NCBI GenBank assembly: GCA_043228905.1 | Contig: JBHGNT010000399.1 | Span: 1-28,300 of the forward strand | Length of the DNA stretch: 28,300 bases | Reading direction: 5' to 3' | DNA from: Azolla caroliniana | Lineage: Eukaryota; Plantae; Polypodiophyta | Part shown: positions 130 through 26,238 of the stretch, in pieces | Layout of the letters: the number at the start of each line of letters is the position of its first letter | Position numbering within the stretch: position 1 is the stretch's first letter | The notes under the pieces: model-generated | Seen by the model: the letters and a program-made list of their open reading frames with translations, nothing else | What the model was told of the DNA's origin: nothing | Databases searched by the model: none | Program-made: the position numbers and the translations under genes

Positions 130-3100
130 CTGTCACATAAAGCCCATTAAATTAAGTTAATTAAGTTCATGAAGTCAATATCAACTTACCATCAACATAA
201 AAATAACATCTTTGATGATAAAAAGTTATACTCTTAGGCAATTGCTGAAAGTACTGTCTCGTAGCAACTCTGGAAGACAATTTTTTAAAGCCTCACATGC
301 CCTGTAACAAATAAATGTGGCATAAGACTTTCATATATGTCAAAGAATAGTTAGGCATACATGTCTTGTTTAAATAACCTTGGATTATCTGATAGACGAA
401 GATAGCAACGGATGATATGTTTCAACAGCCGAACAGATGGCTGTTCAGCAAGCATTGCAACCATACTTCCTAGGACAGCTCCTACTGCAAAGAACCTCTC
501 AGCTGTGGCACAAATATAAGCTAGTCCAACATCATCTAAAAGTATCTTTTGCACAATAAATGTTGCAACCTGCAAAAGAGATGCCATAACCTCCATTAAT
601 GCAAACAGAAGGAGATAAATATGCAACAAAAAAGTCAGATTGCACTTACTGTTTTTGAGAGTTCACTGCCCATTTCCATAGTGCGAAGACATAAAGGAAT
701 AATCTCAGTGGAGAGAAGAAAATTGATCACATCGGTATCATCAACCTGCCAAATGGACCATCGCAGTGAGTATCTTACTTCCAGCTGTTTTAAAAAACTT
801 TTCCAGACAATGGGAAATCTTTGTTATACCTTAACAAGAGCACCAATAACTCCTAAACTGGTCAGACGAAGATATTCAAAAGGTCTTGTTTTGCTGACAG
901 TATTCAAAAATGGGTAGAGATATAATGGTATGTGTGCTGTCAAAACAAAACAAATATGATAACAATAAGAATTATAAGCACCGTATTTCGGCAGGACGTA
1001 ACACATCAAAATTAAGAAACAACAAAGTATCGTAATCAAGAAACATCACAAATAATGTTATTAGAATCCAGATCAAGCTACCCAGAATCTACATTAAAAA
1101 ATGGCTAACTGCAAATATGTATAAATATTCAGTGTTAAGGTCAAAGGCACTATTGAAGCCCTACAGCAAAATATAAATGAGGTTTTTGCAGTCACATAGG
1201 AGTATGTTTTCATGAATGCGAAACTGAAAACATAATATCAATTATCCAATAACTTTAGATATTGTTTATATGAATCAACAGGAGCCTCAAGTCTGTTGCT
1301 GATTTGCCACATATTTATGTAGGACGTGAAGAATGAGATATGAATAGATGCAGGACCAGTACTGTTTTTTTAGATTTGTTTTTATGGCAACGGTGTCTAG
1401 TGGTGGCAGGATAAGACTCTTTTCATTTCTCTAATGCAGAACTTAAGGGTTGGAATCAGCCACAATCCAAGAATCTAACTGACGCATTACAATTTGCAAA
1501 GAATGCGGACATATAAAAGCACAAAGGCTACCAATTTCGATCATATAAGTTTCAAATTTAGACCAAACTTTCTACTGTTTTTTATTTCAGCAATTACATG
1601 AAGCAATCGACAAAAATGACAATTGTTCTTCCATCAGATGCCAATCATCATGTTTTGTTGCATTCCCTGGGTATGAGCCCAATACATTTGTACATATTTG
1701 CCACAGACTGGTTGAAGTTAAACCATTCACATTGATTGTCATGGTACTGATACCCTCATGACAGGCAAACCTCAGAGTAGGACTGCTTGGAGACCTATCT
1801 CGGTTACTCCTGGAAAACAGCATGTCATAAGGTTTTCCACGATGAGCATATAGATATGAGACTTTTAGATAGTTTCTGTTCCTCAGAGAGCCTTTTTTTG
1901 CCTTAATCATAATACATTTCCCTGAACTCTTCATACATGATCAGGATCATCTCTTGGATTGTGAGATGTGGACTAGAGTGCAATAATCAGGATCATACCC
2001 ATAAAACTTGATTGACGCCGTTACCCACAAGATGCATCACTAAAAAGTGCATTTTCTGAGATTCACGGATGATTCATTTATCATACACCCCAAAAAGCAT
2101 GCTTTATTCCATGTAGTAAATTCAGCACTCAGAGAATTGTATCTGGAGATAGCTTTCCATAATAGATAATATACCGAGGTAAGGGGAGGTTTTCATAGAC
2201 CATAGAGCATTCATGGATGTCAGTAAATGGATGGTAAACAAATGAAATTATCTATTCAGGTACTATTTGGGCATCATCGCAAATAGGATGAATTACCATA
2301 CCAGACATTAAATGTTCTTTATCATGAAATACGCATCATGGTAGAAAGGTTTAAAAAAGCATGCTTTATTCCATGTAGTAAATTCAGCACTCAGAGAATT
2401 GTATCTGGAGATAGCTTTCCATAATAGATAATATACCGAGGTAAGGGGAGGTTTTCATAGACCATAGAGCATTCATGGATGTCAGTAAATGGATGGTAAA
2501 CAAATGAAATTATCTATTCAGGTACTATTTGGGCATCATCGCAAATAGGATGAATTACCATACCAGACATTAAATGTTCTTTATCATGAAATACGCATCA
2601 TGGTAGAAAGGTTTAAAAAAAACTACAGACATGAAATTGCACCTTTAGAACGTAATGTTCTCCACTGAAGGGACATGCGTGAATGAGAATGACTACAAGC
2701 AGTGATAACATGGGGATGTGATCCAATAAAGGCAAGCAGGTATTACCATGCATATTCAATGGTTGTCTGGGGGCTGTCTGGATTGTTCATGAGATGTATC
2801 AGACATATAATATAATATGTACGCTGTAGGTTTATAATCATAATCTTCTAGCTGGCCTTCATTTCGCATACCAAAAGAGCTTTCAGCAATACCATATTTC
2901 AAAAGTTTCTCCTCACATGCCAGCTAGCCCTAGCCTCTCATCATTGGTGGGTGCTGACAATGTCATATAAGACAATGCTAATGTTGCACCCCTGCTTGGA
3001 TTTTGCTATTGTGTTGTTTTTTTCAGATTTCTTCTACTCAACCACTTTTTATCTGAAGGTCTGGAAATTATAACCTTGTCAAAGGCTTTATTAAAGCAAG

Positions 3101-6100
3101 AAAACCAATTCGAAATGCATTTTAAGAGATGTCCCAACTAGCTAGGTGATGGTTACAAACTACCTCCACTTCCTTTATCCATTCTGGTCACGCTACAGTG
3201 TACTCTACATTGCCTTTCTTCACTAAGACTCTATGTTAAGGCATGTTTTAAATTCATGAGATAATACATAAGACAGTTATCATTTATGATTCTTTCAATA
3301 AATTATACTATTTAGTATATAACTGCAAGATTCTGATTTTGCATAAAGCTTCATTCACAATATTTCTAAAACCTGTACTTATGTAGCATATACAACTCAT
3401 TTTATGAAATGTCTGGTTTCCATCAATTTGGATATAAATTGCTAGAAAAGGAAAATGAGTTCTCACCATTTAAAAAAAAAGCTCTTGTTTCTGAATGTGA
3501 TGCTACACACTGGAAAGAAAACATGTGCATGTTCAGAACACAAGCAATAAAGAGATATTTAAAAGAAAAGAAAAATTATATTCAACCTGCAAAAGGGCTA
3601 AAGCATTGCAAACACGATTTGATGCACCTGCAGTTAAAGTTGGTGGTGACAGCATTGGATAGATAGACACTATTTCCTGCAAATGATGTTCAATAAGATG
3701 GTGGTTCTGCAGAATAAATTGATAGAATGTGGCAAAAAATTGCATATGATGAGAGATAACAGCAGATATAATTTAATTATTTGAATGTCCTATAATTCTC
3801 ACAGCTTATTACACAGAATCCACACTACAGTAAAAATGACAAAAGGTAAGGCCGCAAACTGAGCAATATATAAATACCCTGCACATGATGTATACACATG
3901 TGTATATTATTTATTACAACCAGACTTGGTTCCAATATAAAAGCCAAGAATATGCCGAATCATCAATTACCACATCTTGCTTGGAATGTTGGATGTAATC
4001 TACAAAAGAATCAGAAGAGTAAAATTCTTTCATCCGGTTGGGTTGTTGACATAAGAAAATGGTTCAAAAGATGGGGTGTGGATGAACTTTTCGAGCTTTT
4101 GGGTGATGCTATGCATTATGTAATGATTGAGGAAAGGTTGGTGGAATCAGTAAGGATGAAATGGGAAGATGCTAAGAGGACAAAGCTAGAATATTACATT
4201 GCAAATGTCAACCCTGAATGTTGGTCTCAATAACGCAAGAATGCCTATTGATTGTATCCAACCTTATCTCATTACAAATATGAGTAGTAATGCTCGTAGA
4301 GCCCTCACAATAATTCGCACTCAATCTCACAAGTTAGGTATTGAAGTTACATCATGGTATCAAAATGTAACGAATTTAAGGGCATGTAAAGTATGCAATG
4401 AAGGCATGGTAGAGGATGAATGTCACTTGCTCTTCACATGCTTGGCATATAGTGCAATTCATTCAAGATATGATGACATTAAGAGGGAGTGACAACATAA
4501 GTGCCATACTTAAGACACCACCTAGAAGGTTCAATTCATATGTGCATGCCTTATTCATGCATAGAGACATTGTGCTTCAATGTATGAATACCCCTTTTTG
4601 GGAAGGAGACACATATCAAGAACACATGTATACTCTGGTCCCATAGGTCAAAATTGGCCTCTTTATGGACGATAAAAATTCTAATTCTAACAACATCTAA
4701 ATGTCTATTTATGCAGTGACATATGGTAATGCTGATTCACATCTATAAATGCATAAGACAAAACCAATGTGACATTTGGACCAAGAGTAAGCAATTGTTT
4801 ACACCACTATGTCAAGTTGGTCCAACAAAATGTCAAAAGTCCAAACAATTTAAAGAAAACAACAAAAATGCAAGGAATCCCTGATGTGATTATTAGAAGA
4901 CGAAAGACAAGACTTCATCCTCAATCATACTTCACTACTGGACACATTATGAGGTGGAGCTCTAGATTGCTTATATAACAATGAGCTCTATTTGAGAGAT
5001 TGATGAGAAATCATGAGTTGCCAGTACAGAAAGGACACGGAGAGAATGATTTTCTTGGGGAAAATCATGTTTAGAAAAGTGTTGCTTTTCGAAGATTCTG
5101 AAATTAAAATTTGGAAAAACTAAATATATTAACTGAAATTATATGTGTAGAAGAAAAACTAAATATATTAACTGAAATTTGGAAATACCACTTTCCCATT
5201 GCATTAAACCACCGTTCAGTTCTCCAGATGTGAAACAGCCATTTCCTGCTTGTATGGCACACCCAAACTTTTTTCTACGATTTGGCTAGTGGAAATCAGA
5301 ACTACTTCAACAGATTTGCATGTTCTGCTATGTCAAATATGACACATGTCTGCTACCATAGTGCAAATAAATGAAAAAAATACACGTGTCTTTTTCAGAT
5401 TTCTTGTCAAATGATCACTTCATTCTAGATCTTTCTGCAAGAGTTTAATAGTGAGGCCAATTCCATCCTCAATCTATATCATCACCATTCATTGTACATG
5501 TAATATCATAATTTTGAGTGGTGATAATGATTTTGAAGGATTACATCATGCATATGCTCTATGCACAGACTAAAAAACAAGTAAAGGTCAGTTGTATCAT
5601 CAATTCCATTTTCTAAAAAATAAGGTTTAGAGCCCTGTTTTTATTTGTATTCATAAAAAGAAAAACATTAGTAAATTTTCAGCTCCATGTGTTTTTGTTG
5701 ATAGTATCTTTTATTTTTATCTTAACTTGAGAATAATATATTTATCAAAATGGTAGTTTAAAACAGAAAGGTGAAATCTATAAGAAAACCAGGTACATCT
5801 CTAGCAAGCAATTCATATAGAATATAAATGTTCCTTAAGGAATATAATAAAAAGGACAAAGATTGAATGAAAGCAATAAGAAAAGATCAAAACATAGCTA
5901 CATTACCTGTAATAGCGCAGCAATTGTTCCACATGAATGCCATAGCATTGGTGCTAGATCTTGAAAAAGCTCCCGTTTCTGCGTAAAAGCACTTGCTACA
6001 GCAATCAGTGCAAATTGTCACCATACCTCTCCCTCGCATGTTGTATTGTGGCTATACTATAGTAGCAAGCAATGTTTTATTGGGTTCACTTTTTCACTAA

Positions 6101-6531
6101 TTTACTAGACGACCTTGTGATATGCCTGGCTTAAAATCTCATTAATTTACAAGATGACCGTGTAATATACCTGTGGCCAAATCTCACTATTTCCACAAAT
6201 TTAATAGATAAAATTGCACTATACCTGGGTCAAATCTCAATTCTTTCACCAATTCACTAGATGATCTAGAGATATACTTGGGTTCAAATCTCAATGATTT
6301 CACTAATGTATAGATGCCCTTGAGAAATGTATGGGTTGGGTTCATGACCCTATGGGATTTGCTGGAACATCTTAACGACTAAGCTACATCGTCCTGGCAC
6401 GGCCTCTCTCTCTCTCTCTCTCCAATTCGAAACACAAAAACCATACTACTAACCTTGGAGAGATCAAGAAGAGCATTTTCCCGCTGTTCAGGTATGATGA
6501 GCTCCAAGACGAGCTGCTCTGCAGTCGCCAT
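1..6531 (-). CDS. CNOT9: CCR4-NOT transcription complex subunit 9 (RCD1/CAF40), 9 coding exons, 3' end runs off the window
   Basis: Spliced exons 6531-6454, 5978-5907, 3676-3587, 3509-3467, 936-830, 745-650, 569-379, 301-232 and 129-<1 join in phase at GT-AG introns. The product (about 292 aa visible) reads [57 protein letters not shown]...[39 protein letters not shown]...[19 protein letters not shown]..., the hallmark Rcd1 sequence. Confidence 0.97.
232..301 (-). CDS. CNOT9: CNOT9 coding exon 8 ([23 protein letters not shown])
   Basis: 70 nt, completes the split Arg codon, AGA|GTATAA donor. Confidence 0.94.
379..569 (-). CDS. CNOT9: CNOT9 coding exon 7 ([13 protein letters not shown]...[14 protein letters not shown])
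   Basis: 191 nt, AG/GT bounded; lies within ORF 351..629. Confidence 0.96.
650..745 (-). CDS. CNOT9: CNOT9 coding exon 6 ([32 protein letters not shown])
   Basis: 96 nt, CAG acceptor, GTAAGT donor. Confidence 0.96.
830..936 (-). CDS. CNOT9: CNOT9 coding exon 5 ([36 protein letters not shown])
   Basis: 107 nt, AG/GT bounded; lies within ORF 824..1039. Confidence 0.96.
2092..2620. repeat. 262-bp tandem duplication in CNOT9 intron 4
   Basis: GCATGCTTTATTCC at 2097 and 2359, GGTAGAAAGG at 2340 and 2602; copies appear identical; A-runs at the junctions. Confidence 0.95.
3467..3509 (-). CDS. CNOT9: CNOT9 coding exon 4 ([14 protein letters not shown]+G)
   Basis: TTTCCAG acceptor, G|GTGAG donor, 43 nt, phase 1 matches the next exon. 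Confidence 0.94.
3587..3676 (-). CDS. CNOT9: CNOT9 coding exon 3 ([30 protein letters not shown])
   Basis: 90 nt, AG/GT bounded; lies within ORF 3533..3745. Confidence 0.96.
3890..4690 (+). mobile_element. 5'-truncated non-LTR retrotransposon 3' end (RTEX/L2-like, family A), antisense in CNOT9 intron 2
   Basis: ORF 4199..4492 has [11 protein letters not shown]...[19 protein letters not shown] (LINE C-terminal CCHC region); homologous to 24700-25590; ends in a stem-loop and an (ATTCTA)2 tail. 5' boundary approximate. Confidence 0.85.
5907..5978 (-). CDS. CNOT9: CNOT9 coding exon 2 ([24 protein letters not shown])
   Basis: CAG acceptor, CAG|GTAATG donor, 72 nt; missed by the ORF track. Confidence 0.95.
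6088..6325. repeat. Degenerate minisatellite, about 5 copies of a 45-56 bp unit, in CNOT9 intron 1
   Basis: Recurring TTTCACTAATTTACTAGATGACC..TGATATACCTGGG..CAAATCTCA-like units; AAATCTCA occurs four times. Confidence 0.7.
6404..6422. repeat. (CT)9 microsatellite
   Basis: Read directly. Confidence 0.9.
6454..6531 (-). CDS. CNOT9: CNOT9 coding exon 1 ([26 protein letters not shown])
   Basis: ATG at 6531-6529 with an in-frame TAG upstream; donor AAG|GTTAGT at 6453; 78 nt. Confidence 0.9.
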
Positions 6532-6743
6532 CTCCTTCTGTCTTCGCTTTTTCTGGGATGGAGGTAAAGAGGAGGGACCGTGAGGAAGGCGAAGGGAGTA
6601 GAAGAAGAAGAAGATGAAGAAGAAAGGAATGCCATTCTAAGGCCAGATTTCCGTTTCACACCTTTTGTCCGCCCGGACGGACGCTCCTTCGAATAGCTCC
6701 CCTCGGAGGAGACACAGGATTATATCTGATGCCAATTTTTTGT

Positions 6744-6885: not shown

Positions 6886-7386
6886 GTTCTATTGATATTT
6901 GCTTGCCATATCAGAGGAATGAATACACATGCGGGTTTGCTTCTTTTATCAAGATGCCACTCCGATTCACCATCATCCTCATTATAAAAATAAAAATAAA
7001 CGCATGCTTTCCCCACCCCCATCCATGTTGTATTGTGTCTCCTCTCATTTGCCTCCTCTCGAGCTTTCTATTGTTCATCAAACCCAGATTGTGTTCCTCT
7101 TTGGCCTGTTGGCTTGGTGGTTTACATTGTAGCATTGAAATCGTAAAAATTGAAAGAGCTGAATTTCAATCCTTGCCATGGGTTGGGCCCTATCTCATAA
7201 ACCGTACCATGTCTCCTACACAATGTTTACAAGAGTTTCTCCCATGTTGAATTGATGGTAAATTTGATGTTGTGTTTCCTCTCATTTGTAGTTTTTCAAA
7301 AAGGGGAGCCTTCGACTCCAAGCAACCCCCGACTCAAAGGCTCGAGCCCGAAACTCCGTCCAACCTCTACGGTCCTCCATGCTACA

Positions 7387-7877
7387 TGTAAAGAATCGAT
7401 GGTGATTCTTGTGCAACGGAATAGATGTGTGTTATGTGTGTATATGTGTGAGAGAAAAGGAGAGGAGAGAAAAGGGAACACAAGATAGATAAATGAGAGG
7501 AAAATAGAATACTCAAGAAGAAGGTGTATATTTCACAAGTAGAATAAGATTTACAAAATGTAGCATAACAAGGAGTCACAACCGACTTAGTATGAAGTAG
7601 GAGAAGGGTGCTTTATATATAGTCACCCTCTCTCTTCAGTAACTAACTACAACAACCACTCTCTCTTGGGGAATGTGAAGACTCATAGTCATGGGGAATA
7701 TGTAACTCATTAGTTATATTCTATGACACATAGTTAATGTGTAGAGAGTAGTGGTGTGACTCTTGACCTTTGGGTAATCATAGATTCTCAAAAGGTGTGT
7801 TCACTAAACCCTAAACCCTAAACCCTAAACCCTAAACCCTAAACCTTGTTGCACTATGTTGAGCTTGATTCTCAACA
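7387..7877 (-). repeat. Copia 3' LTR (491 bp)
   Basis: Matches 12357-12821 with about 12 substitutions, a 15-bp deletion and a telomeric insertion. Confidence 0.96.
7804..7845 (-). repeat. Interstitial plant telomere tract, (TTTAGGG) x6
   Basis: (CTAAACC)6 on the + strand; absent from the sister LTR. Confidence 0.95.
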
Positions 7878-7889
7878 CGCCCCCTCAAG
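7878..7889 (-). other. Polypurine tract of the copia element
   Basis: Minus strand CTTGAGGGGGCG directly precedes the TG of the 3' LTR. Confidence 0.88.
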
Positions 7890-8007
7890 TTCAACTCGGG
7901 TCGGTTCCTTTCAATTGATTTCCCCTTCGGTTGGTATCCGGTTTGGACGATCTCCGGTATCTGCTTCAGCTCGTACCCGGTTCAGACGGTATCTGGTTCT
8001 CGCTTGT

Positions 8008-11000
8008 ACTCCCCCTCAAGCTTGGCAAGTCAGGGATTGTCAATCCAAGGTCTGGCATGAATTGCCGAAGCTTGTTGGCTCCTAGGGCCTTGGGAAGATG
8101 TCGGTTGTCTGAAGATTCGTGTTGATGTGTAGAAGATTGACATCTTCGGCCTGAACACGCTCTCGAATGAAGTGGTAGTGCACTTCAATATGGTTTGTGC
8201 GTGCGTGGAATAATGGGTTCCGAGCCAGATATATATTGCTCATGTTGTCGCAGTAAATGGGTGTCGGATCCTTGATGGGAACGCCCAGATCCTTCAAAAT
8301 CCTCTTGAACCATACGACTTCACATGCAGCTACGACGATGCCCCTGTATTCGGCCTCCGTACTCGAAAGTGCGACGGTAGGCTGCTTCTTACTACTCCAA
8401 GATATTGCTCCGCTACCGAGCGAGAAGACAAATCCGGAGGTCGATCGTTGATCAACTCTGTAGTCGGCCCAATTGGCATCCGTGTACCCTTCGAGTCGAA
8501 TTGGTGTGGCTGATGTGTAGAGGATGTCGTAGTCCATTGTGCCACTCGCGTATCGTAATGCTCGTTTAGCACAATCGAAATGGATATCGCGCGAAGTGTG
8601 CATGAATTGGCTAATGAGGCCGACCGGATAGTTGAGGTCGGGTCGAGTGATCGTGAGATAGATGAGGCTCCCGATCAATTGTCGATATTGAGTTGGCTCG
8701 CACTCGCCTGTGCTGGAGTCGACATCTAGGTTGAGGTTTCGATCGAGAGGGGCTGCCACAGATTTGCACTCAGCCGTCCCGAACTTGTATAATAAGTTGA
8801 GAATGTAGTGTCGTTGAGAGTTCATAATGCTGGTTGGAATACGAATTACTTCGATGCCTAGGAAGTAATGAAGTTCCTTCATGTCCGTCATCTCGAATTT
8901 GTTGGAGAGGAGGGACTTCACCTTGTTGATGTCGACTAAATGCTCACCTCCAATCACCAGATCATCCATGTATAGGATGATGACAATCGAGCTTCTAGAG
9001 TTGTTTCGTACGTAGAGGGAGTTGTCAGATTTTGACATTCAAAAGCCGATTTGATGAAGATATTGCGTAATCTTGGAATGCCAAGCACGCAGTGCTTGCT
9101 TGAGGCAATGGAGTGGCTTCTTGAGTTGGCATACGACTTTCGGATGAATGTTGGATTCGAAGCCGGGTGGTTGTACCATGTACACCTCCTCTTCTAATTC
9201 TCCTTGAAGAAAGGCGTTCTTTACGTCCATCTGATGGAGGTGCCACCCTTTCGCCGATGCGAGTGGAATTACGGTCCAGATAGTCGTTATCTTTGCCCCC
9301 GAGGCAAATGTTTCTTCATAGACGACTCCATGGAGCTTTGTAGCGGTTTACAGAGCCGTCAGCATTATACTTCACCTTGTAGATCTTGTGCGGTGAGTGG
9401 GGAACGGAATCCCATGTTTTGTTCTTGCAAAGTGCCTGTATCTCCTTGTTCATTGCTTCGACCCATCACGGGTCCTTCACGGCTTTGGAAAAGGTTTCTA
9501 GCTCCCGTACTATTGCTACCTTCATCATAAAGGCGTAATGGTACACTATATAATCATTGTAGCCGAATCGGCTTACGGGGTTCTTTTCACAGGTGGATCA
9601 GCGGAGCTTCTCGTTTGTGGATACTAAGGGTTTCTTCACTCCATTTGTCCGGATGTCAAGGCCTTCGAACTCACTATCGAGAGAGTGAGTCGATTCTTTG
9701 CCGTCGAAGTGATCGTCTTCATACTTCGGCATTTTCGCCTTCCCTTTGTCTAGCTTCAGACTCAGCCGAGATGTGCTTTGACCACTCGGGGCACTTGTGG
9801 CCCACTAAGCCTTGTCGTAATTGGGCTTTCTTCGAACATGCGTGTGAGCCGATCTTCAGCTTCTATCTCTATTTCGGCGGATTCCAGGTCGAGCGGAATC
9901 AAAGTTGAAGTTGTCTCTGGTGCTACCAAGATGCGGACTCGTCGAAAATGACGTCTCGACTTACTTGAGATTTTCGAGTTGAGGGGTTATATCACTTGTA
10001 CCCCTTTTGCTCCAGTGAGTATCCTACGAGGATACATTTCTCCGACTTCGGGTCAAGCTTTTGGCGCTTCTTGTTGGGGATGTGCACGTATGCAATAGAG
10101 CCAAATATCTAAACATGTGATAGGTTCGGTTTCTTTCCAAAAAACTCCTTGTGCGGAGTAAGTTTGTGCACACCCGATGTCGTACACCGATTCATGAGGT
10201 ATACAACTGTGTTAACCGCTTCTACCCAGTACGACTTTGGCATGTGCTTTTCGTTCATCATGGCCCGTGCTACTTCAAGGATGTGCCGATTCTTTCATTC
10301 GACCACTCCGTTTTGTTGTGGCGTATGTCGACACGAAAACTCTCACTGAATTCCTTCTTTCCGTAGATATGCCATAAACTCATTCAAGAAATATTCCTTG
10401 CCTCCATCTGATCGAAGGCATCGTACATGTCGGCCCGTGGCTTTCTCGACTTCATTCTTAAATTTTTGGAAGTGTCCGAACAGTTCTCTCTTTTGTCGCA
10501 TGGGGTAGATCCAAGTGTGCTTGGAGAAGTCATCGATGAAGGTCACGTAGTATCGGCATCCGCCGAATGTAGTCGTCTGAGTCGGACCCCATACATTGGA
10601 ATGAATTACGTCGAGTACGCCTTTGCTCACGTTCCTCTCCTTAAAAAATGGGTGCCAATGTTGCTTGCCGAATTGGCAAGCGGCACACACACCTTCAATC
10701 TCTTTCTCCTTTAATGTCGGGAGCCCGATGACGATTCCTTTTGATTGCATTGCCTTGAGCTTTTGGAGGTTGTTATGGCCAATCTGCTTGTGCCATAACT
10801 CTATGTCGGAATCGGCTTTCGTGCCCTTTGCGAACATGGCCGATTTCATCTCGTGCAAGTCGAGAATGAACATTCGGCCCTTTCTTTGTCTGTGAGCGAT
10901 GAGTCGGCCTTCTTTTTCGATGAAGCAACCGCCTTGATTAAATCATACTTGCATCCCTTGCTCAACAATTTGGCCGACGGAGACCCAATTCTTCGTAATG

Positions 11001-12189
11001 GTTGATACATGCAAGACATTTTTAATAAAAGTTTGGTTACCTTCTTTGCCGAATGGGATATTGCAGATATGTCGAATCGGATGTGTAGTGTCGTCTCCGG
11101 TTTCGACATAGTCGAGTCGTTCCGGCTCTCGAATTTCTCGGAACCATTCTTGATGAGACGTCATATGGTTTGAGGCACCGTAGTCGATGAGCCATACGTC
11201 TTTCGGACCGAAGGCACTAGTTGAAGTAGAAGCTGACATAGAATTTGCTCTATGTCTCATCATGAACATTCCTCCACAATCGTCATAGTCGGAGTTGGTG
11301 GCGTAATTGGTGAGTTGTTGGCTAGTGGAAGCCGAGTCGCGCATCTTCTTACGACACTCTTCTTCGTGGTGACCGATTTTTCCACAATATCCGCATTCGA
11401 CCAAGTTTTGTTGGCTCGGACTGGAATGGTGGCTCCCCCTTCTTCCGAAGGTTCCTCGATGGCCTCCATCTTGTTGTCGTAATTGAGAGTTGTTTTCATA
11501 ACTCGGGCCTCGTCCGCCTCATCCTTGGCCGAATCGGCCTCTTCTTGCACGGTCGCGTCCTCTTCCTCCATCCGATGCGTGTAGAGCATGTGGCCTTCCG
11601 AGGCATTGCTCCTTGTTTGAACATGATTCTCTTTGACCAACAACATGGATTGAAGATCGAAGAAAGAGGGAGGATTCTCCCATGCTAGTACGATGGTCCT
11701 CATCGCGCCGAACCGTGGTGCAAGGCCGCCGAGGCATATTTGCACCATCTCATCGTCATTCACATTCACGCTTATCGAGCCGAGCGAGCCGCAAAGCTCC
11801 TTGATCTTCAAGGTGTAGCTCGTGATGGACATATCCTTTTGTTGGATGTTGTTCAACTCTTGGTGGAGTTGAAGCTTTCTCGCGATTGTGTTGGCGGCGA
11901 AAATCTTTCATAGATTCTCCCACGCTTCCTTTGGCGTCTCGGCTTCTTGAATGTAGCCAAGCATGCGGTCGTGAACACATGTGGCCAAGCAATACATCAC
12001 TCAGCTTGCCGCTTGCTCCCACGTTGCATAGTCGGCGTCTTTCGGGTCGGGTCGGTTTTCTTGTGCTCCTTTGATGTAACCCCAATAGCCTTGGCCGACA
12101 AGGTATTGGTGCATCTTGTACTCCCAAGATGCAAAGTTGTTTCGATCTAGCTTCTCGCTAGGGAGAGCACTCCCGATTTGAGTATTCAT
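8008..12189 (-). pseudogene. Disrupted copia gag-pol polyprotein
   Basis: Gag (EKLDRNNFASWEYKM), zinc knuckle CGYCGKIGHHEEEC, protease WLIDYGASNHMT, integrase VIHSNVWGP and RSDGGKEY, RT MDVKNAFLQG and LYMDDL, RNase H GYTDANW and STEAEY. Many stops, frameshifts and small deletions. Confidence 0.95.
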
Positions 12190-12344
12190 TGTCGATGAAG
12201 CTTCCTTTCTTCTTTTCCTTCTCTCTCGAACACGAGCTATGTAATGGTACTATGATAGCGATGAGTCGGTTCTTCTTGAACATCGGCGTAGAGCACAACA
12301 CATGATCACGATGAGGTGAGTGGGGTAGATGGAGCTACCAAATC

Positions 12345-12356
12345 GCTCTGATACCA
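12345..12356 (-). other. Primer-binding site complementary to the tRNA-iMet 3' end
   Basis: Minus strand TGGTATCAGAGC directly after the CA of the 5' LTR. Confidence 0.95.
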
Positions 12357-12821
12357 TGTAAAGAATCGATGGTGATTCTTGTGCAGCGGAATAGATATGC
12401 GTTATGTGTGTATATGTGTGAGAGAAAAGGAGAGGAGAGAAAAGGGAACTCAAGATAGATAAATGAGAGGAAAATAGAATACTCAAGAAGAAGGTGTATA
12501 TTTCACAAGTAGAATAAGATTTACAAAATGTAGCATAACAAGGAGTCACAACCGACTTAGTATGAAGTAGGAGAAGGGTGTTTTATATATAATCACCCTC
12601 TCTCTTCATTAACTAACTACAACAACCACTCTCTCTTGGGGAATGTGAAGACTCTTAGTCATGGGGAATATGTAACTCATTAGTTATGTGTCATAGAATA
12701 TGATTCTATAACACATAATTAACGTGTAGAGAGTAGTGGTGTGACTCTTGACCTTTGAGTAATCATAGATTCTCAAAAGGTGTGTTCACACGTTGCACTA
12801 TGTTGAGCTTGATTCTCAACA
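12357..12821 (-). repeat. Copia 5' LTR (465 bp)
   Basis: TG...CA ends, adjacent PBS, TSD outside. Confidence 0.96.
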
Positions 12822-14031
12822 CTACACTTGCAATTGACGTTGATTGAGGTCACCTCGCCATGTCACCCAAGCCAATCTTTCCTTCTCACATACTTATATA
12901 TATATATATAATTAAAAATAATAAATTGATAAATTAAATAAAATAAAGATTGAGATGTATACAAACAAGTTAATTGCAAACACAAGTGTTCACTCTTGTG
13001 TGTTCATACATACAGAGGGTTTTGTACACATCGAGAGTTCAAGAGAAAAATCATATTGATTCCTCAAATCAAACTGAAAGTGAATATCAACATACATGAG
13101 GTCCTTAATGTCAATGACTCAGCCAATCACATCCTCTTTGGTTCAAGTCCCCGATGATCTCACTCACTTTTCACATAGACGGGCATTATTTTCGCATATA
13201 CATTGAAGTTTCTTACCAATAATACACGTTTTGTTAAAAAAATGCCATAGAAATACAAATTTGGTGTAGTGGCATTCTTACAAATTAATTATTTAAGATA
13301 TTTCAATACAACACAAAAGGAAAAAATGTTTTCAATTAATTTTGCGATGCAAATTGTTTTTCATAATCACCAGGATGTTACTCGATGCTTCCTTTTCCAC
13401 AACCTAAGTCAACTCTATAGTAAGATGAAATCCACTTGAAAGATATATGGTATGGCATATTATTATAATTTCACAAGTTCACCTTCATTATTAAAGTTTC
13501 AATTTCATTCATTAGATTCTTAACTGGCATTAATTGATTATTCCAATCATTTTAAGAGGAAGATTTTCAAGCCTGACACCTTGAGAAAGATTCTATTTGA
13601 AATTACTGTCAATAATAAACTTTGTCAATTTGATGTTTCGTAATGTTCACACATATCTTGTGGCAATAATGTGCTCCTGGTTTTAGACAACATCAAACCA
13701 ACCAATAAAACAAGACAATTAAGCATTTCATCAAGTTATTATTGTACATCGCAAATTGACAAGATGATGAGTTGTAGTCCACAATCCCTCATTTGTACTA
13801 GATGTCAACCCATTACTATCACACATTACTATCTTGTCCATATATAGCATTGTAACTTTTTACATTATTTCAACATTCCTCAAAATAATTATCATGGCAC
13901 CTCATATGATAGTTATGCATGATAGCGAAATGGCAAACATGCTTGCTAGGCTAGTCTTGAGCATACACAATAATGCTTGGTAGTGACATCCATACAACTA
14001 TAGTAGCATTATGTATTTAAGGAGGCTCGAA

Positions 14032-14911
14032 GGTTGTGAAACCATCTCATTCTACTATCATGTTTGTAGATTTAAGGATTGGTGTAAAAGTAAGAAATAC
14101 CAAATTTATAATTATGAATTATTATAGGCCTTATATATTTAAAGCCACATGTGTAAATCGAGGGAATTATTGGCCTAAATTTTAATATGGCCTAGAAGGC
14201 TTTCGAAACTTCTACAAAAGCCTAGAAACATCTCAACCACTCTAATGAGGATTGTGAATAGCCTATAAAAACCACTTTTGGGTTGGGTTGGGTTGGGTTG
14301 GGGGGGGGGGGGGAGTAGCAATCGAACAATGAAAGGAATCAAGGAATGAAGTGAAAAAGCAAGCAATAGCATTAGGGAACAAGAGCGTCAAGTGAGGAGT
14401 AAAAAGAATAATAATATACAAGAAGATACAGATAAGAGAGAACAATAGGAAGAAATAAAAATTAACAGTAGCAAGTAAATGAAGATAATAATAGTGTATC
14501 ATAAGATCTTTTGTTCCTCAAACAATGAATGAGAGTTCAAGTTCTCTCCCTACACATATAAGGAGAGGTATAAGTTAAGTCATTTTATATACTTCAAAAA
14601 ATTAAAGTTCTATTGTTTAAGTCACGTAAATTGATCAGGTTTAGGCACTGATGAGCTCTACCTAGAGTGAAACTAGTTTGCACAAGGTCTTTCTAATGAA
14701 AATTTCTTAAGCTTTTCTTTTTTTCTCACTCACTCTTCTCTTCTTCTTTCATCTCATTCTCTCATTCTCTTTTACTCTTGTTCACCTCTAATCCTACTCA
14801 CCTTAGTTTCACTTGCATCATTGCTTTATTTCTTTTCTTACTCTTCCCATATCATCTCAATAGTTGTGCTAGTTCGCTCGCACTCCTTGTCACGACGCTA
14901 TGGTCACAACA
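14032..14911 (+). mobile_element. Solo-LTR-like non-coding element (gypsy or retrozyme-like); boundaries uncertain
   Basis: CTAGAA/CTTC motif cluster (14191-14228) like the one in the gypsy LTR at 23330-23370; TATA box CTATAAAA near 14263; imperfect inverted ends GGTTGTGA / TCACAACA. No TSD found. Confidence 0.45.
14641..14696 (+). ncRNA. Candidate (partly degenerate) type I hammerhead ribozyme
   Basis: TTAGGCA-CTGATGA-GCTCT(ACCT)AGAGT-GAAAC...GGTC-TTTCTAA: exact CUGAUGA and GAAAC core boxes around a 5-bp stem II, a GUC site, and imperfect stems I and III. Confidence 0.6.
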
Positions 14912-15573
14912 AAATATGTAGTTTTCACTTTATACTCTTTGGCATTTATTTTGCATAATCTTGTGCTCTTTCCCCTAACCATCTCCTTTACTTCTACGAT
15001 CTCCCCTTCAATAAAATCTCGGAGATTCAACATAGCAATCGTGACCTTCGAAATAATGCCATATACCTCATACTTCTTGAGCGACGATCAATTGCCATTG
15101 AATCATGGTTATGGAAAGGGTTGTTGAATACATGCTAAACAAGCAAAAAGGTTGGTCTGAAAGAGTTTTTTATGTTCCACCTAGATGCAAAATATAAAAA
15201 AATGGTTTGGAAGATAGGATATAGCACATGTGCTTTTTTGTGAGTTACATTCACGAAACATGGCAAAGACAAGGGAGGGGTATTTTTGTGAGTTTCATTA
15301 AACATGACAAAGACAAGGGAGTGGTATGTTTGTGAAATTCAAACTTTCACAGTGTTTTATCCATATATTTTATCTCACATGTCCAATTTAATCATGTAAG
15401 TATCCAACATGACCATCGTGATTTCTAGATTTAGAACACACAAAAGCAATCACACTACCATGATGTTGTAATGAATTTCCCTTTAACAATGGAAAATGCA
15501 AAAACACAAAAAAAAAGATATGGAAAATTGGTTGTCTTAAAGAAACAATGTTCATGCAATGACAATGTTTGGT

Positions 15574-16160
15574 GAGAGAGAGAGAGAGAGAGAGAGATTT
15601 TAGTATCGTCTTCCGAGGTTATATATGGCCCATGAGATAAAAAATATAACATATTCATATAATACATGTGAAAGTGAGTGGTGACTCTTGATGTTTAAAA
15701 TTTTACTAATGAAGGTTACAATTGATAGTGTGTGATTGTGAGAGAAATTTGTGCAGGGATTGCATTTGGTTGAAGATGTATGGAAAACATAATCGAATGT
15801 GATCAAAGATAGAGCATTGTATCGAAGTGCGATACTCAGACTCTCAAACTTGTTTAACATGAAATGCACATAGTCAACTACTCTCACCACTTACGCCCCC
15901 ACACCTCATCTCAAATTGTAGTGAGTGTGAGCTAAGTCATATGGAAACAATGCTTTGGATGGCACGAAACAATATGAACTCTAACATGTGTTGCAATGTG
16001 TGGTTTACTCATTGAATGAAGAATATGGCTTTGTAGTTAGGTGCAACATATGCAATATAATGTGTGAAGTTTGAGCCTCCAAATTTCCCCATGTCGTGAT
16101 ACATTGGTGTTGCGAAAAGGCATCATTCATAGAGGAATTAATTGATTCTTGTTTAAGAGA
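15574..16160 (-). mobile_element. 5'-truncated LINE 3' end (family B) with a (CT)12 tail
   Basis: Reverse-complement homologue of 20760-21337 (ORF 15600..15890 aligns with ORF 20961..21209); (GA)12 at 15574-15597 is the tail. Confidence 0.88.
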
Positions 16161-17629: not shown

Positions 17630-18161
17630 TGTTATGAGCATAACTGTAACCATATTTATGGGCTAATTTGTAAGGATGAAGGGTGAGGATTGAGTTATCT
17701 CAATCCTACAATGGGGGATAACTTTAGAGTGTTTCATCACTTGGCTACTTTTTATACAAAACAACCAAGTGTGAAACATACAAGGGCCTAAGGTTTGAGC
17801 CTATATAAGAAGGCTAACTACCTTCATAAAGGGGGATCTCTTTTCTTTATTGTTTGAGACAGAGACTCTGATAGTGTGGCAAAACTCTAGCTTCATACAT
17901 GTGTGCCTCCTTTAGCTATGATCCATGTTTGTACACAATGGTATGTGACATTGGCAGGGGACTGAGACCTGTCTCCCACCTTTGTTAAGGGGTGGTTGGA
18001 TGGACTGACCATTCATCCTTATTTCCTTCTTAAATTTTGCATATCATTAATTAAGATTCTAATAGATGAAGTATCTCCACTGTAAGATTGAGATAACTTA
18101 ATCTTCGCCCTTCATCCTTATGAATTAGCCCACAACAACGGTTACAATTATGCTCATAACA
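17630..18161 (+). mobile_element. 532-bp TG...CA element with about 90-bp terminal inverted repeats (solo LTR or MITE)
   Basis: TGTTATGAGCATAA...TTATGCTCATAACA; 70 of the first 81 positions complementary; flanks CCTCA/TCTCA; internal CCTATATAAG near 17799. Confidence 0.85.
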
Positions 18162-18789
18162 TCTCAGTTACCCTAATCATACGAACTCTTGCTCACCCTT
18201 CACTAAGACAATTCTAATTAAGAAATCAACTAATGGCTTACAAAGAAGAACATCACACATAGGAATTGGTTATGTTTTTGTTTAAGCCAAAGCAAACCAC
18301 AAACAAATGTGGCACAACAATTTAACTAATTCGGTTTATTTCTACTCTATTTAGATATAGAAATTTGTAAAATGGCTTGGTTTGGCTTGGGGCCTAGGTG
18401 TTCAGTAAGTTTGGTTTGACCATTTATTGGATTGATGGTTTACAATTATACCATGCCATCTTCAAATCATAGTTTAAATAGTTGAATGGTTTAGGGTTAT
18501 GACATTTTTGAAATATTTACTAAATTTATGAATTAACTTTATTAAACTAAGAGTTATAGCATATCAAACATAATAAGTTATAACATTTGAGGTCCAATAT
18601 TTTCATTTTTTCTAAGTTTATATACACACGACTTTTGGTTGGAAAACTCTTTGTTAAATAATTGTGCCAAAGTTAACATATAATATGTTTAGCACTAATA
18701 CATACCTCTTGGTTTGAACAATGTCAATTTAAATGTTTTGTGATTTGGTTTAGGGTTATGATGATATGTGACCTGGCAACGTTCTCTCT

Positions 18790-19537: not shown

Positions 19538-21337
19538 ATGGCAAAACTATTTGGATGTATAATGGAATCAAAGATAAGTGCATGAGATGAAAAAAAGAGA
19601 TAAGAGAGCTTATGGACCAACTGGCTTTCGAAAACACCATAGCACCATTGATCACCTTGTCGCCCTTCGAGTATTAATGGAGGAAAGTCGTCTTAGAGGT
19701 AAAGGTTTATATTATTGCTTCGTAGACTTCAAGAAAGCTTTTGATATGGTACCTCGTGAGCATCTTTGGAGGTGAATGGAAGAACTCGAGGTGTCAATAA
19801 TATATGCTTGCAATTTCCTGAATATATGAGAATGTTATATGTTGTGTGCATATGAGAGATAAACTTTTAGATTTGTTGGTGTTAAGCATGGATGCCCACT
19901 ATCACCAACTCTATTTGGCCTATGCATTGATGAATTGGAAGAAATGGTTGCCACATTTGTAAAGGAAGAATGTGTTGAAGAATTTGCCATTGGGAATGTT
20001 GTCATTATGCTTTTGCTATATGCAAATGATGTAGTGTTTTTTGCAAATACTTTAGGAGATGCACAAAAACTTTTGAAGGCATTGGAATTTTTTGCATGCA
20101 TACTAAATTAAGTGACAATCGGTCTAAAACAAAGATTATGCTTGTGAAGAGGCCCCAAAAAGATAAACCATGCATTATATACAATAATGAGCCACTTGAA
20201 TGTGAGAAAAGCTTCAAATAACTTGGCCTTGAAGTTCCTTCAAATTATAGATGGAATGAATGCGCTACATGCCGCTTAGAAGCGGGGAAGCGAGCATATT
20301 ATGCATTTGAGAACACATGCAATCATGGAGATATTGTATTGAGTCCTCAAGATATACCTTTTTGACACTTTCGTGACACTAGGGCTTCTCTATGGGGTGG
20401 TAGCATCCCTAAATCTACTTGGAAAGAGTTTAAAAATGTTCAAATATATTCTTACAAAGTTCTACAAGTTAACAAACAAACATCATACAATATATTCTTA
20501 CAAAGTTCTACAAGTAAAGAAACAAACATCATACACCCTCCTCCCCCTCCTCCTTGAGACAAGATCACTTCCCATTGCGATCATAGCCATGGAAAGGTTT
20601 ATTGAATACATGGTTAAGATTCAAAAAAATCCCTCACATCAACTACCTATAATTGCATGGGAAGCAAGCAAAAAGATCCAAAAGATGCTTAAAAGAAAAA
20701 TTTGTGTTCCAGTTGGATGCAAGATATGAAAAAATGGCTTGGTAGATGGGATGCAATGCACTTGCTTCATGATGCATCACTAAATACCTTTGTAAATGAG
20801 GTCTTTTTGCAATGCCAATGTATCATGGCATGGGACAAATGTGGACTCGGCTCATTGTCTACACATTATACTACACATGTTGCACCTAACTACAAAACCA
20901 TATTCTTCAGGGAACAAGGAAACCATACACATCAATACATGTTAGAGCCCATCTTGTTATTTGTCATTTGAACCATTGCTTCCATGCGACTTAGCTCACA
21001 TGCATTGCGATGTGAGAGGGGGCATTGGGGCACAAGAGATGAGAGTGGTCGACTATGCACACTTTGTCCAAAACAAGTTGGAGAGTTTGAGTATCACACT
21101 TCGATACAATGCTCTGCCTTTGATCATATTCGGTCATGCTTTCCACACATCTTTAACCAAGCTCAATCCTTGCACGAATTTCTCTCACAACCACAATCTG
21201 CACTCTTGATTGCAACATTCATCGGTAAAGTTCTTGAACATTGAGAGTCGCTACTCACTTTCACATGTATCACGTGAAATGTAATATTTCTGGTCTCATA
21301 GTTCATATTTGACCTCCAAAGGCGATAATAGAAACTC
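19538..21337 (+). mobile_element. 5'-truncated RTEX/L2-like LINE (family B), degenerate RT plus C-terminal zinc finger
   Basis: GFRKHHSTIDHL, FVDFKKAFDMVPR, GVKHGCPLSPTLF, LLYANDVVF (YADD-like), and RLSSHALRCE...CTLC...EFEYH...C. Confidence 0.92.
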
Positions 21338-23209
21338 CATATTTTCCTTTCAATCACCTTTAGTCGATCTCAAACCATTGACCCTTTCATTAGCAATGGG
21401 TAGCTTTTGTTGTCTTCTTAATAGTCATTCTTTTTCCTTTTTAATTTTAGTGAGCACTTTGATTACAAATCCCACGCTTGTCTAAAACCTACCTTTACTA
21501 TGTTTTGCTCACTTTCCATATGTCATATCACTATAACAATGAGGCATTACATAATTTCCTTAACATAAGTAATAATATGCCCTTCATCAAAGCTTGTGAT
21601 GAAACCATGAACATTGAGGGCAACTTTTATGATTTTCAAACCCCTCGCACAACACCCACTAATTCAAGAGGCAACACTACATAGTCTTCAAGACAATCTT
21701 ATTGAAAGATAGAAACGTTGATGACCAAACCTATCCATGAGAACATTTGTTGCCCGATCTGGCAGAGCCACCAACCCAAGCAAGATCATGCCTGAAAACA
21801 CACACACAATATTGTAAGTGTTGTAATATTTTCATCTTCCATCACCCAAACAACTATTGTAAAGCCCTATGGGTCACTTTGACCCACTTCCATTTCGAGA
21901 CCGCCCATATAAAACCCTATAGGGTTGCTCATGAAGACCTCTATGTTTGGCTATCCTACCACCACAACCTCTCAACATCAACAAAAGGAAGTTATTTGAC
22001 TATGCATTGGTGAATGAATGTGATGCACCCATAGTGAATACAATAAGTATTGGCCCATTGTCATTAGACTCGAACCACAAGCTCTTGTACTTGTATATTT
22101 CACCCAAAAATTCACACATTGACCAATGCATTAGTGTACAAAAGGAAAAGAGGTACATTATGTGAACTTCATATCAAAAGGCGAGTCTATATGCAAATGA
22201 GGTAACTGAGAGTTATGTCATGAACCTCTTCCTTAGTAAAGGTGTGAAAACAAAGTGGGAGCAATTGAAGAATGTCATTCTCAAGGTAGGGTGTCAATAA
22301 TTTAGTGCACAAGTGGGTGGACATTGAATGCTTAGCTTCCCATGCAATGCTTGGTTTGGCGAAAAATGCAAAGCTAATCTCAAAATGTTAAAGGTTGAAA
22401 AAGATAAAAATGACAAAGCTTTATTATTGTATCAAGATTGAAGAATGATGGGGAGAAAGAAGAGACAATACCATCAAATACAAGAAAAGAAGAAAAAACA
22501 AATGTTTAAAATCCAACCAAAGTTAGTATGGAGACAACTCAAATGCAAAAGGAAGATATAACTAGTGAATTCACCGACGAGGAGATGGAACAATATATAT
22601 GTAAGCTTTATATGCATGATGGGATAATGCGTATGAAATTTAGTATTGCAATACCATAGAATGCATTTGTATTTGTTGAAAATGTTAATAGAGGGGTAAA
22701 AAAGATGTCTAATGGCAAAGCGGTGAATATAACTTTAATGACAAGACTTGTAAACTCATCAACAAATAGAAATTATCATGGATCAAACGATCAAGAAATG
22801 TCTTTGAGAAGATTGACTCATGAATCGGATCAAAGTAATCCATAAAGGAGCAGATAAAAATTGGTAACCAACTATCGAACTATCATGGTTGCCTCAGATA
22901 TGGCCAAGTTATATAGCACTACCATGGAACAAAAGATTAGCACATGGGTTGAACATCATCACAAATGAACACTTGCTCAACCTATCTTTAGGCCAAAACA
23001 TTCAATTGTCAATTACTTGGTTGTACACTAAGCATTACCATGGGAAAAAGTCAATTTGAAGGAAAAACACCATGTTGTTTTTGGCAGTAAGACACCAACC
23101 TACTTTAGATACAAAGTAGAACCAATACAAATGGTGCAAATCTTCAAATATCTTGGTGTTAAGGTTCCATGAATAAATAGGTGGAATGTATGCTACATGA
23201 CAACAGTCA

Positions 23210-24370
23210 TGTCATGATTTCAACTCTTGACCTATTGTATTTAATGGATATGTTTTAACCAATACATCCAATACATAACTATATTATCTTACTAGATTAC
23301 TGAGATGATCTATTCTACATGTAAGATTTTAGAAGCTTCTAGAAACCTCCAAAATCTAGAACATTCTAGACACTTGTGCATGAAAATGAGTCTTTGCATG
23401 GGGCTACATTTAGAGCCCATAAACATGTATAAATACAGGGGTTCACCTTGGCCTTAGTCAAGGTGAACAAACTGTCACGGACAAGTAGTCGAGGCCACAG
23501 TCCCCCTCATTTTGCAGCTCGGGACCCAACAAGAGGCCTTATCATTTTACCTCATCACTTCACCGCAACATCCAATCATACTTGGGTTGTCTTGGTTGAA
23601 AGCGAATAAACCTGTTATAGATTGGCACAACCACTCACTTACTTTTCAACTGCAAACTCACATGGAGGTTGGAGCGGCTTCCAATATCGTTGTGTTAGAA
23701 TGGCTCGAATCATTTTCTGTCGAGCACTCCATTCAACTCGGACCAATGCACTCGGATGATCATGCCCCAGTCACAAGGCACTCCATCTAAATGGGCAATG
23801 ACTCAAAGTTGAGTACCCCAGCTTTGGTTCCTATGAAAGCCAATCTGGACTCGCTTCCATCCAAATATGGTGACTTTGCTGATGTGTTCAAGAAGAAGAA
23901 TGCAGATCACTTACCAGAGCATCGACCATATGATTGTCCGATAGATCTACAGGAGGGCATATCTCCACCCTTTGGGCCCATCTATGGTCTCTCTGAACCA
24001 GAACTAGAGGCTCTTCGCACTTATCTCAATGCAAATTTGGAGAAGGGCTTCATCCAACCGTCTAAGTCACTAGTTGGGGCCCCTATCTTGTTTGTGAAGA
24101 AAAAGGATTATCGTGGCCTCAATAAAATCACGATACGTAATCGATAGCCTTTACCTCTCATCCTAGAGCTCCTCAATCGCCTTCGTTGTGCATAGGTCTT
24201 CTCCAAGATTGACTTGCGGGGAGCATACAACTTGGTTCGGATTAAACCTAGTTACGAAATCATAATTCAGTTCTTGTTCTCTTGACTACTTTCTCTCTCA
24301 CTCTCTTTCTTATTATCTTGTCTATGATCTCACTCTCTTAGTATTGAGCCTTGTCTACTTGTCTGTGACA
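23210..24370 (+). mobile_element. Ty3/gypsy remnant nested in the LINE: LTR-like ends around a pol fragment
   Basis: TGTCA...TGACA termini, GCTAC duplicated at 23192-23196 and 24371-24375, TATA at about 23428; LINE homology resumes across it. Confidence 0.85.
23479..24258 (+). pseudogene. Gypsy (chromovirus-like) protease-end to RT-start fragment
   Basis: PIILGLSWL..NKPVIDW, LPEHRPYDCPIDL, PSKS..GAPILFVKKKD, YRGLNKITIRNR*PLP, FSKIDLRGAYNLVRIK. Confidence 0.9.
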
Positions 24371-26003: not shown

Positions 26004-26238
26004 TGTTAAGTTTGAGGGTTATTGAGTTCAATACAATACACTAACCAATAAGTGACCACCACAAGACACTATCGTGGCCCTTGTTAAGTTTGAGGGTTAT
26101 TGAGTTCAATACAATACACTAACCAATAAGTGACCACCACAAGACACTATCGTGGCCCTTGTTAAGTTTGAGGGTTATTGAGTTCAATACAATACACTAA
26201 CTAATAAGTGACCACCACAAGACACTATCGTGGCCCTT
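26004..26238. repeat. 78-bp tandem repeat, 3 copies
   Basis: GTTAAGTTTGAGGG at 26005, 26083 and 26161; one substitution in copy 3. Confidence 0.96.

What the first reader, a model, noticed from the sequence alone, without database searches (positions are those of the whole stretch)
14641..14696. Hammerhead ribozyme core inside an LTR-like element: candidate retrozyme or ribozyme-bearing LTR family
Seen: CTGATGA (14648-14654), stem II GCTCT/AGAGT with ACCT loop, GAAAC (14669-14673), a short stem III (A-U, C-G, U-G) closing on GUC (14687-14689), and stem I TTAGGCA/TTTCTAA (6 of 7 pairs including one G-U). The G-U closing stem II is what CpG decay of the canonical CGAAA would give. Established: this is the hammerhead consensus; described plant retrozymes carry mainly type III hammerheads in LTRs and make circular RNAs, while type I motifs are typical of Penelope-like elements. 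Inference: a decayed copy of a self-cleaving LTR element with type I topology in a probably non-seed plant, a combination I do not recognise as described. This copy may be inactive.
Basis: partly seen in the sequence, partly recalled or inferred. Interest (0 to 1): 0.85.

Follow-up and report, generated by a model that had tools for sequence, protein, structure and literature searches.

The report
Hammerhead relic of telomere-type Penelope retroelement

Summary
Relatives show a type I hammerhead with a covarying stem II and distal stem I, a 2-bp palindromic helix III and predicted site GUU 14676-14678. Window 14644-14912 is 266/269 identical to the repeat end (pLTR) of an endonuclease-less Penelope-like element: two ORFs joined by a predicted -1 frameshift, RT folding like telomerase, no GIY-YIG, head-to-tail arrays, C-strand telomeric repeats. 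No LTR, PBS, PPT or TSD. This copy is young and 5'-truncated, lacks the TATA box and distal stem I arm, and is likely dead. The kind is known from Selaginella (PMC4209133), and this scan noted such elements before in fungi and a diatom. Not found in my searches: a fern-like host, U17 in 56 of 56 family matches, a separate 3'-terminal hairpin, RT-less tandem satellites and young internal insertions. Cleavage and circles are untested.

The parts
14644..14911 (+). 5'-truncated copy of the repeat end (pLTR/leader) of an endonuclease-deficient Penelope-like element; whole insert
   Evidence: 266/269 identical to L039 and 264/269 to L040 over 14644-14912; high contig depth only over this stretch; shared from -4 relative to CUGAUGA
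14645..14647 (+). Hammerhead stem I, proximal 5' arm (GCA); distal 5' arm lost at the truncation
   Evidence: pairs kept in 97.8% of cells; distal arm missing in 2 of 31 distinct copies, the window and L008
14648..14654 (+). Catalytic core CUGAUGA
   Evidence: fixed by the search pattern in relatives
14655..14668 (+). Stem II and loop; closing pair G-U through a CpG transition at 14668
   Evidence: third pair U-A in 19, C-G in 12; closing pair G-C in 30, G-U only in the window
14669..14678 (+). GAAA, 2-bp palindromic helix III (ACUAGU 14672-14677) and predicted cleavage triplet GUU 14676-14678 (cut after 14678)
   Evidence: Rfam HH9 aligns intact relatives in this register; U17 in 56 of 56 family matches where the pattern allowed A, C or U
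14679..14689 (+). Stem I 3' arm: UGC, then AAGGUC, whose partner GACCUU is absent in this copy
   Evidence: distal helix swaps GACC/GGUC (11), GGUC/GACC (16), GGCC/GGCC (2) among relatives
14690..14878 (+). Pyrimidine-rich leader between ribozyme and terminal motif
   Evidence: length differs between subfamilies
14879..14911 (+). Conserved 3'-terminal motif (CGCACUCCUUG, small hairpin 14894-14905, ACAACA); fixed 3' junction of insertions; second CpG transition at 14901
   Evidence: 70 occurrences on the hammerhead strand, 0 on the other; followed by ORF1 start 43, telomeric repeats 10, other DNA 15, contig end 2; loose ends at this point in runs X1, X2, X5
14030..14643 (.). Left flank, NOT part of the element: low-copy older repeat with a TATA-like box near 14266
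   Evidence: no match in the 56 loci; depth near single copy next to the junction, diverged relatives only over parts
15073..15220 (+). Right flank: relic similar to the LINE-like fragment at 20550-20752
   Evidence: 77-83% matches

Best explanation
Window 14644-14911 is a short, 5'-truncated copy of the hammerhead-bearing repeat end of an endonuclease-less Penelope-like retroelement, likely pasted by the element's telomerase-like reverse transcriptase at a DNA break and likely inactive. Shown in relatives: unit order TATA box - hammerhead - leader - terminal hairpin - ORF1 - slippery site plus hairpin - ORF2 (RT, no endonuclease), in head-to-tail arrays of 4.6-6.2 kb, with RT-less satellites of 1.7-2.4 kb. 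Inferred mechanism: the TATA box 36-39 nt before the core drives a transcript that reads through to the next repeat end; RT, made by -1 frameshift, starts copying just after the terminal hairpin, primed by a telomeric G-overhang or another free DNA 3' end, and falls off at variable points (here 4 nt before CUGAUGA). The ribozyme is inferred to be throttled: helix III is only 2 bp and palindromic (needs a second copy), monomer folds pair the core with that loop, and the site is GUU. It would cut multimeric transcripts to unit length only part of the time, so templates that cross the cut site (uncut or re-joined circles) remain, as this copy requires.
For: Identity to coding arrays; fixed 3' end with variable 5' ends and depth rising toward the 3' end; covariation in stems I and II; Rfam HH9 on intact copies, best E 1.5e-4; RVT_1 in 5 of 5 ORF2s, no GIY-YIG; RT clade with Selaginella, Ginkgo and Cryptomeria proteins, SH 99; seven best fold matches are telomerases; slippery AAAAAAC plus hairpin at 21 of 21 ORF junctions; CCCTAAA 268 versus TTTAGGG 12 on the sense strand; no TSD/PBS/PPT; monomer helix III probability about 0.
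Against: No cleavage, RNA or circle data. Rfam scores lie below the gathering cut-off and the window copy scores nothing. Core, loop III and UGC were fixed by my search pattern, so their invariance is circular; only stem II interior, position 17 and the flanks are free. 55 of 56 loci come from one series of related assemblies, so they sample about one host lineage. No named Coprina/Athena reference was in the tree, which is FastTree only (the fuller search did not finish). The window's subfamily showed no telomeric repeats after its hairpin, so its priming at internal sites is unexplained. Host assignment is weak (CNOT9 identities 271 Adiantum, 266 Psilotum, 259 Marchantia, 252 Physcomitrium).
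Confidence: 0.9

Rival explanations
1. LTR retrozyme or ribozyme-bearing LTR family spanning 14030-14910, cleaving after C14689.
For: The letters allow that fold in this copy; the unit ends in CA and a TG start with a TATA-like box lies upstream.
Against: Register fits 1 of 31 copies; no relative shares 14030-14636; no TSD, PBS or PPT; relatives continue into PLE ORFs.
Confidence: 0.02
2. Same element, but the insert is a complete run-off cDNA of the 5' leader (terminal hairpin back to the transcription start), not a random truncation.
For: Its 5' junction lies 34 nt after the first T of the family's TATA box (38 nt before the core in this subfamily), near where a plant start site is expected (recalled); the terminal motif is also present in the 5' leader.
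Against: No other locus of 55 showed a junction at this place; contigs show other 5' ends within and after the ribozyme (table 8); start site not mapped.
Confidence: 0.15
3. The family's motif is kept mainly as an RNA dimerisation or folding signal (the 10-nt palindrome AAACUAGUUU) and barely cleaves.
For: U17 in 56 of 56 completes a perfect 10-nt palindrome (duplex -8.4 versus -4.8 kcal/mol for the 6-mer); monomer folds trap the core; PLE minimal hammerheads cleaved poorly in vitro (PMC4209133).
Against: Stems I and II covary as for a hammerhead; GUU is listed among active NUH sites (PMC3138052 passage); a second PLE hammerhead in L016 has a palindrome with GUA.
Confidence: 0.2
4. Assembly chimera or chance motif.
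For: The window holds exact tandem duplications elsewhere.
Against: Single-copy-depth contigs of two runs cross the 5' junction (X1 record 6, X2 record 19) and one crosses the 3' junction (X2 record 24); 0 of 400 shuffles. X1 may be the window's own source.
Confidence: 0.01

Closest known systems
Endonuclease-deficient, telomere-associated PLEs of Selaginella moellendorffii (Coprina Sm1/Sm2) with type I hammerheads in their pLTRs (PMC4209133; PMC13159263)
   Same: Non-seed plant, no endonuclease, type I hammerhead in the repeat ends; RT 38% identical to a Selaginella protein and in one clade with it
   Different: Selaginella motifs are described as canonical with typical helices and tertiary contacts; here helix III is 2 bp and palindromic, loop II is not conserved and the site is GUU. 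That the Selaginella protein is Sm1/Sm2 was not verified.
Athena / Terminon elements of bdelloid rotifers (via PMC8557442, PMC6431247)
   Same: Two ORFs with a frameshift signal, head-to-tail chains, 5' truncation, reverse-complement telomeric repeats
   Different: There the telomeric stretch is immediately downstream of the hammerhead; here the 3' end lies 170-1300 nt further, behind a separate hairpin motif, and the window's subfamily inserts at internal sites. No cargo ORFs seen.
Non-LTR retrozymes of animals (PMC7229834 listing; bioRxiv 10.64898/2026.07.22.740005)
   Same: RT-less tandem units with a type I hammerhead, derived from PLEs
   Different: Units here are 1.7-2.4 kb rather than 150-300 bp, are in a plant, and derive from an endonuclease-less clade; circles untested.
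Plant LTR retrozymes (PMC4918200)
   Same: Hammerhead just downstream of a promoter in a terminal repeat
   Different: Type III, LTRs with PBS/PPT/TSD, Ty3-mobilised; none of this is met here.

Membership tests
Type I hammerhead ribozyme | Core CUGANGA...GAAA...UH | tested here: met
   0 of 400 shuffles
Type I hammerhead ribozyme | Helices I, II, III with stem I open, supported by covariation | tested here: met
   family; this copy keeps only 3 bp of stem I
Type I hammerhead ribozyme | Self-cleavage | not testable with these tools
   no assay; no RNA reads
Penelope-like element, endonuclease-deficient (Athena/Coprina type) | RT of PLE type, closest to telomerase | tested here: met
   in relatives: RVT_1, homologues include GIY-YIG PLEs, seven best folds TERT; no ORF in the window copy
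Penelope-like element, endonuclease-deficient (Athena/Coprina type) | No GIY-YIG endonuclease | tested here: met
   no Pfam hit in 10 of 10 ORF1/ORF2 tested; ORF2 ends after the thumb
Penelope-like element, endonuclease-deficient (Athena/Coprina type) | Head-to-tail arrays forming pLTRs, 5' truncation, no TSD | tested here: met
Penelope-like element, endonuclease-deficient (Athena/Coprina type) | Reverse-complement telomeric repeats at the 3' end | tested here: met
   family-wide 268 versus 12; 10 of 70 terminal motifs run into telomeric repeats; not seen for the window's subfamily
Penelope-like element, endonuclease-deficient (Athena/Coprina type) | Location at chromosome ends | tested here: inconclusive
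   short contigs only; the window copy is internal
Coprina clade specifically | RT groups with named Coprina references | tested here: inconclusive
   groups with a Selaginella protein but no named Coprina or Athena sequence was available
Chlamys / PLE-X of spike mosses | CxC motif and insertion-in-fingers domain | tested here: not met
   neither is visible in alignment A2, read by eye against the description in PMC8557442
Plant LTR retrozyme | Paired LTRs with PBS, PPT and TSD | tested here: not met
Plant LTR retrozyme | Type III hammerhead | tested here: not met
Retrozyme (either kind) | Circular RNA | not testable with these tools
   no raw RNA run served

The most novel reading that the evidence does not exclude
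A fern-lineage radiation of endonuclease-less Penelope-like elements uses a deliberately throttled, dimer-gated GUU hammerhead placed on top of the transcription start, plus a separate 3' hairpin as RT docking site, to make circular templates; it has left the telomere to insert genome-wide at breaks and has spawned RT-less tandem satellites, the first plant non-LTR retrozymes of an endonuclease-less parent.
Probability: 0.25. Interest if true: 0.72.

Novelty: new member of a known kind. Interest (0 to 1): 0.42.

Why it matters
The window copy alone is an ordinary relic. The family behind it matters modestly: telomere-type PLEs are called rare in plants, with Selaginella as the example (PMC12477314 passage), and the role of PLE hammerheads in vivo is open (PMC8557442, PMC7761336 passages). 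Here intact, near-identical copies (one 89-nt contig over the ribozyme at depth 385 against about 9 for single-copy contigs in run X1), coding arrays and RT-less satellites coexist in what is likely a small water- or lab-grown-type plant lineage only if the host is confirmed; that would make the questions 'does the PLE hammerhead cut, and are circles the template?' directly testable. Related RTs in Ginkgo and Cryptomeria suggest a wider land-plant clade.

Tried and rejected
No whole genome is held for the window, so copies were studied through public contigs. Rfam on the window: 0 hits. Pattern scan of viral contigs: 0. PDB by sequence with ORF2: 0. No RNA holder listed; the 'RNA?' runs X14, X17, X24 are guesses and contigs, so nothing on expression is drawn. 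A high-depth contig beginning exactly at 14679, the base after the predicted cut (X14 record 14), was rejected as evidence: a variant at 14709, 30 nt on, explains that contig start. No empty-site joint across the insert was listed. The terminal motif was considered by eye as an HDV-like or twister-like ribozyme (recalled consensus) and did not fit. L048 was dropped before all family counts (no TATA, no stem I, inside an unrelated ORF). One CNOT9 exon was too conserved to name the host. The maximum-likelihood tree did not finish; FastTree was used. Searches for a measured GUU rate gave none; that GUU is slower than GUC/GUA is recalled. Gladyshev and Arkhipova 2007 and Arkhipova 2017 are not held and are known only second-hand. 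Earlier-findings look-up by sequence: nothing.

Full report
1. Observation. A descriptor for that arrangement hits once in the window and in 0 of 400 shuffled windows. Rfam gives no match in the window at E<=1. No genome is held.

2. Extent of the repeat. Laying contigs of 4 of 24 listed runs on 13950-15000 shows summed depth in the hundreds to thousands only over about 14645-14912, against 9-40 for single-copy contigs, with many loose ends behind 14912 and before 14644-47. The loose ends before the core end in GACCUU plus three or four bases, which pair with the sequence just after GUU. Both junctions are crossed by single-copy-depth contigs (X1 record 6, X2 records 19 and 24); X1 may be the window's own source.

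3. Relatives. One pattern scan of metagenome contigs returned 56 loci with 57 matches; L048 is unrelated and was dropped, leaving 55 loci and 56 matches, all from one series of related assemblies. 18 loci align to the window, all within 14637-14920. 14644-14912 is 266/269 identical to L039 and 264/269 to L040; two of the three differences from L039 are CpG transitions (14668, 14901) and the third matches another subfamily member. The insertion is therefore young.

4. True register. Among 31 distinct copies (30 relatives and the window) stem II pair 3 is U-A in 19 and C-G in 12, and the distal part of stem I swaps between GACC/GGUC (11), GGUC/GACC (16) and GGCC/GGCC (2); two copies, the window and L008, lack the 5' arm. 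97.1% of cells pair, 0 of 500 shuffles reach that, and slid controls give 29-43% (relatedness inflates this, and core, loop III and UGC were fixed by my pattern). On 7 of the 56 loci, Rfam hammerhead-clan models hit 6, best HH9 at E 1.5e-4 in the GUU register, all under the gathering score. Position 17 was free in the pattern and is U in 56 of 56 family matches across 19 stem II variants. Helix III is 2 bp around a palindrome; in seven monomer ensembles its probability is about 0 and the core pairs with that loop instead. Such motifs are described as needing a dimer (PMC4209133, parts 1-2 of 4 read). A TATA-like box lies 36-39 nt before the core in 28 of 30 distinct relatives; the window copy lacks it.

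5. The carrier. RT matches occur in 23 of 55 loci, 22 on the hammerhead strand. The unit is TATA, hammerhead, leader, terminal motif, ORF1, ORF2, in tandem periods of 4.6-6.2 kb (L022, L027, L029, L034, L040, L042). ORF2 has RVT_1 in 5 of 5 and no GIY-YIG in any of 10 ORFs and ends after the thumb. Its named homologues are Selaginella (38%), Cryptomeria (38-42%) and Ginkgo (39%) proteins; in a FastTree of 75 selected rows these form a clade with the family (SH 99). The AlphaFold model (pLDDT 81) has telomerases as its seven best PDB folds. All 21 ORF junctions found carry AAAAAAC and a strong hairpin, a predicted -1 frameshift. CCCTAAA outnumbers TTTAGGG 268 to 12 on the sense strand. A terminal motif occurs 70 times on the sense strand and never on the other; it runs into ORF1 (43), telomeric repeats (10), other DNA (15) or a contig end (2); 25 of 36 distinct forms have a perfect 4-bp hairpin. 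Other subfamilies lack RT and repeat at 1.7-2.4 kb (L009, L025, L030, L035, L036, L038, L046, L050, L055). A second lay on L040 shows fixed 3' ends, several different 5' ends, and no listed change at core positions, with 16 rows hidden.

6. LTR tests fail: no TSD, PBS or PPT, no partner LTR, no relative of the left flank; the right flank resembles a LINE relic at 20550-20752.

7. Host. The window's CNOT9 exons match Adiantum best (271 identities; Psilotum 266, Ceratopteris and Marchantia 259, Physcomitrium 252), and a P450 beside a family copy in L055 has Adiantum as best named hit (57%). Fern-like is likely, not shown.

8. Mechanism. Shown: anatomy, covariation, junction pattern. Inferred: promoter use, frameshift, priming after the terminal hairpin at telomere overhangs or breaks, dimer-dependent and weak cleavage. 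Because this copy spans the predicted cut, its template was uncut or re-joined; circular templates were proposed in PMC4209133. This copy has lost promoter, distal stem I and the G-C closing pair and has no partner in the window, so it is likely dead.

9. Known and new. Type I hammerheads in pLTRs of endonuclease-less Selaginella PLEs are published (PMC4209133); the plant table of PMC4918200 (supplement file 4 read whole; passages) lists 111 type I motifs in Selaginella and no true fern. Clade definitions come from PMC8557442 (passages, section 12, supplement search), PMC6431247 and PMC13159263 (passages); PMC7761336, PMC12477314, PMC10088271, PMC3138052, PMC11875169 and the 2026 preprint were seen as passages. 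Nine searches (listings only) showed no fern or moss PLE with a hammerhead; the library lacks most subscription papers and two key papers. This scan has noted such elements in fungi and a diatom, none on this sequence.

10. Verdict. Interest 0.42.

Noticed in passing
window 1-6533 (-): Intron-rich CNOT9/RCD1 gene; best named match Adiantum.
   Followed up: partly
window 7385-12822: Copia-type LTR retrotransposon with about 98% identical LTRs and broken ORFs; one LTR carries an inserted telomere-like (CTAAACC)n run at 7804-7845, absent from the other.
   Followed up: no
window 17630-18162: About 530-bp element with 86-nt terminal inverted repeats; its end also occurs in L052.
   Followed up: no
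window 19600-21280 and 15654-16157: LINE-like RT relic and an inverted, 78% similar partial copy.
   Followed up: no
window 2092-2615; 26004-26237: Exact 262-nt tandem duplication in an intron and a 3 x 78-nt tandem; the first may be an assembly artefact.
   Followed up: no
window 23200-24360: Gypsy-type protease/RT fragments and LTR-like pieces.
   Followed up: no
L016, about 2150 nt upstream of its family hammerhead: A second hammerhead type (CUGAAGA core, ACAUGU palindrome, GUA site) beside an RT fragment of another PLE clade, 38% identical to ORF2.
   Followed up: partly
L010 5490-5815: TATA-hammerhead unit duplicated at 273 nt, the second copy with a changed core: a short tandem like animal non-LTR retrozymes.
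   Followed up: no
L041, L052, L044: Long intact LINE-type ORFs directly beside family copies, head-to-head in L041/L052.
   Followed up: no
P0018 cluster (Cryptomeria), P0028 (Ginkgo): Several near-identical endonuclease-less PLE RTs in a conifer, mostly on short scaffolds, and one in Ginkgo; possibly an unreported gymnosperm telomere-type clade distinct from Dryads.
   Followed up: no
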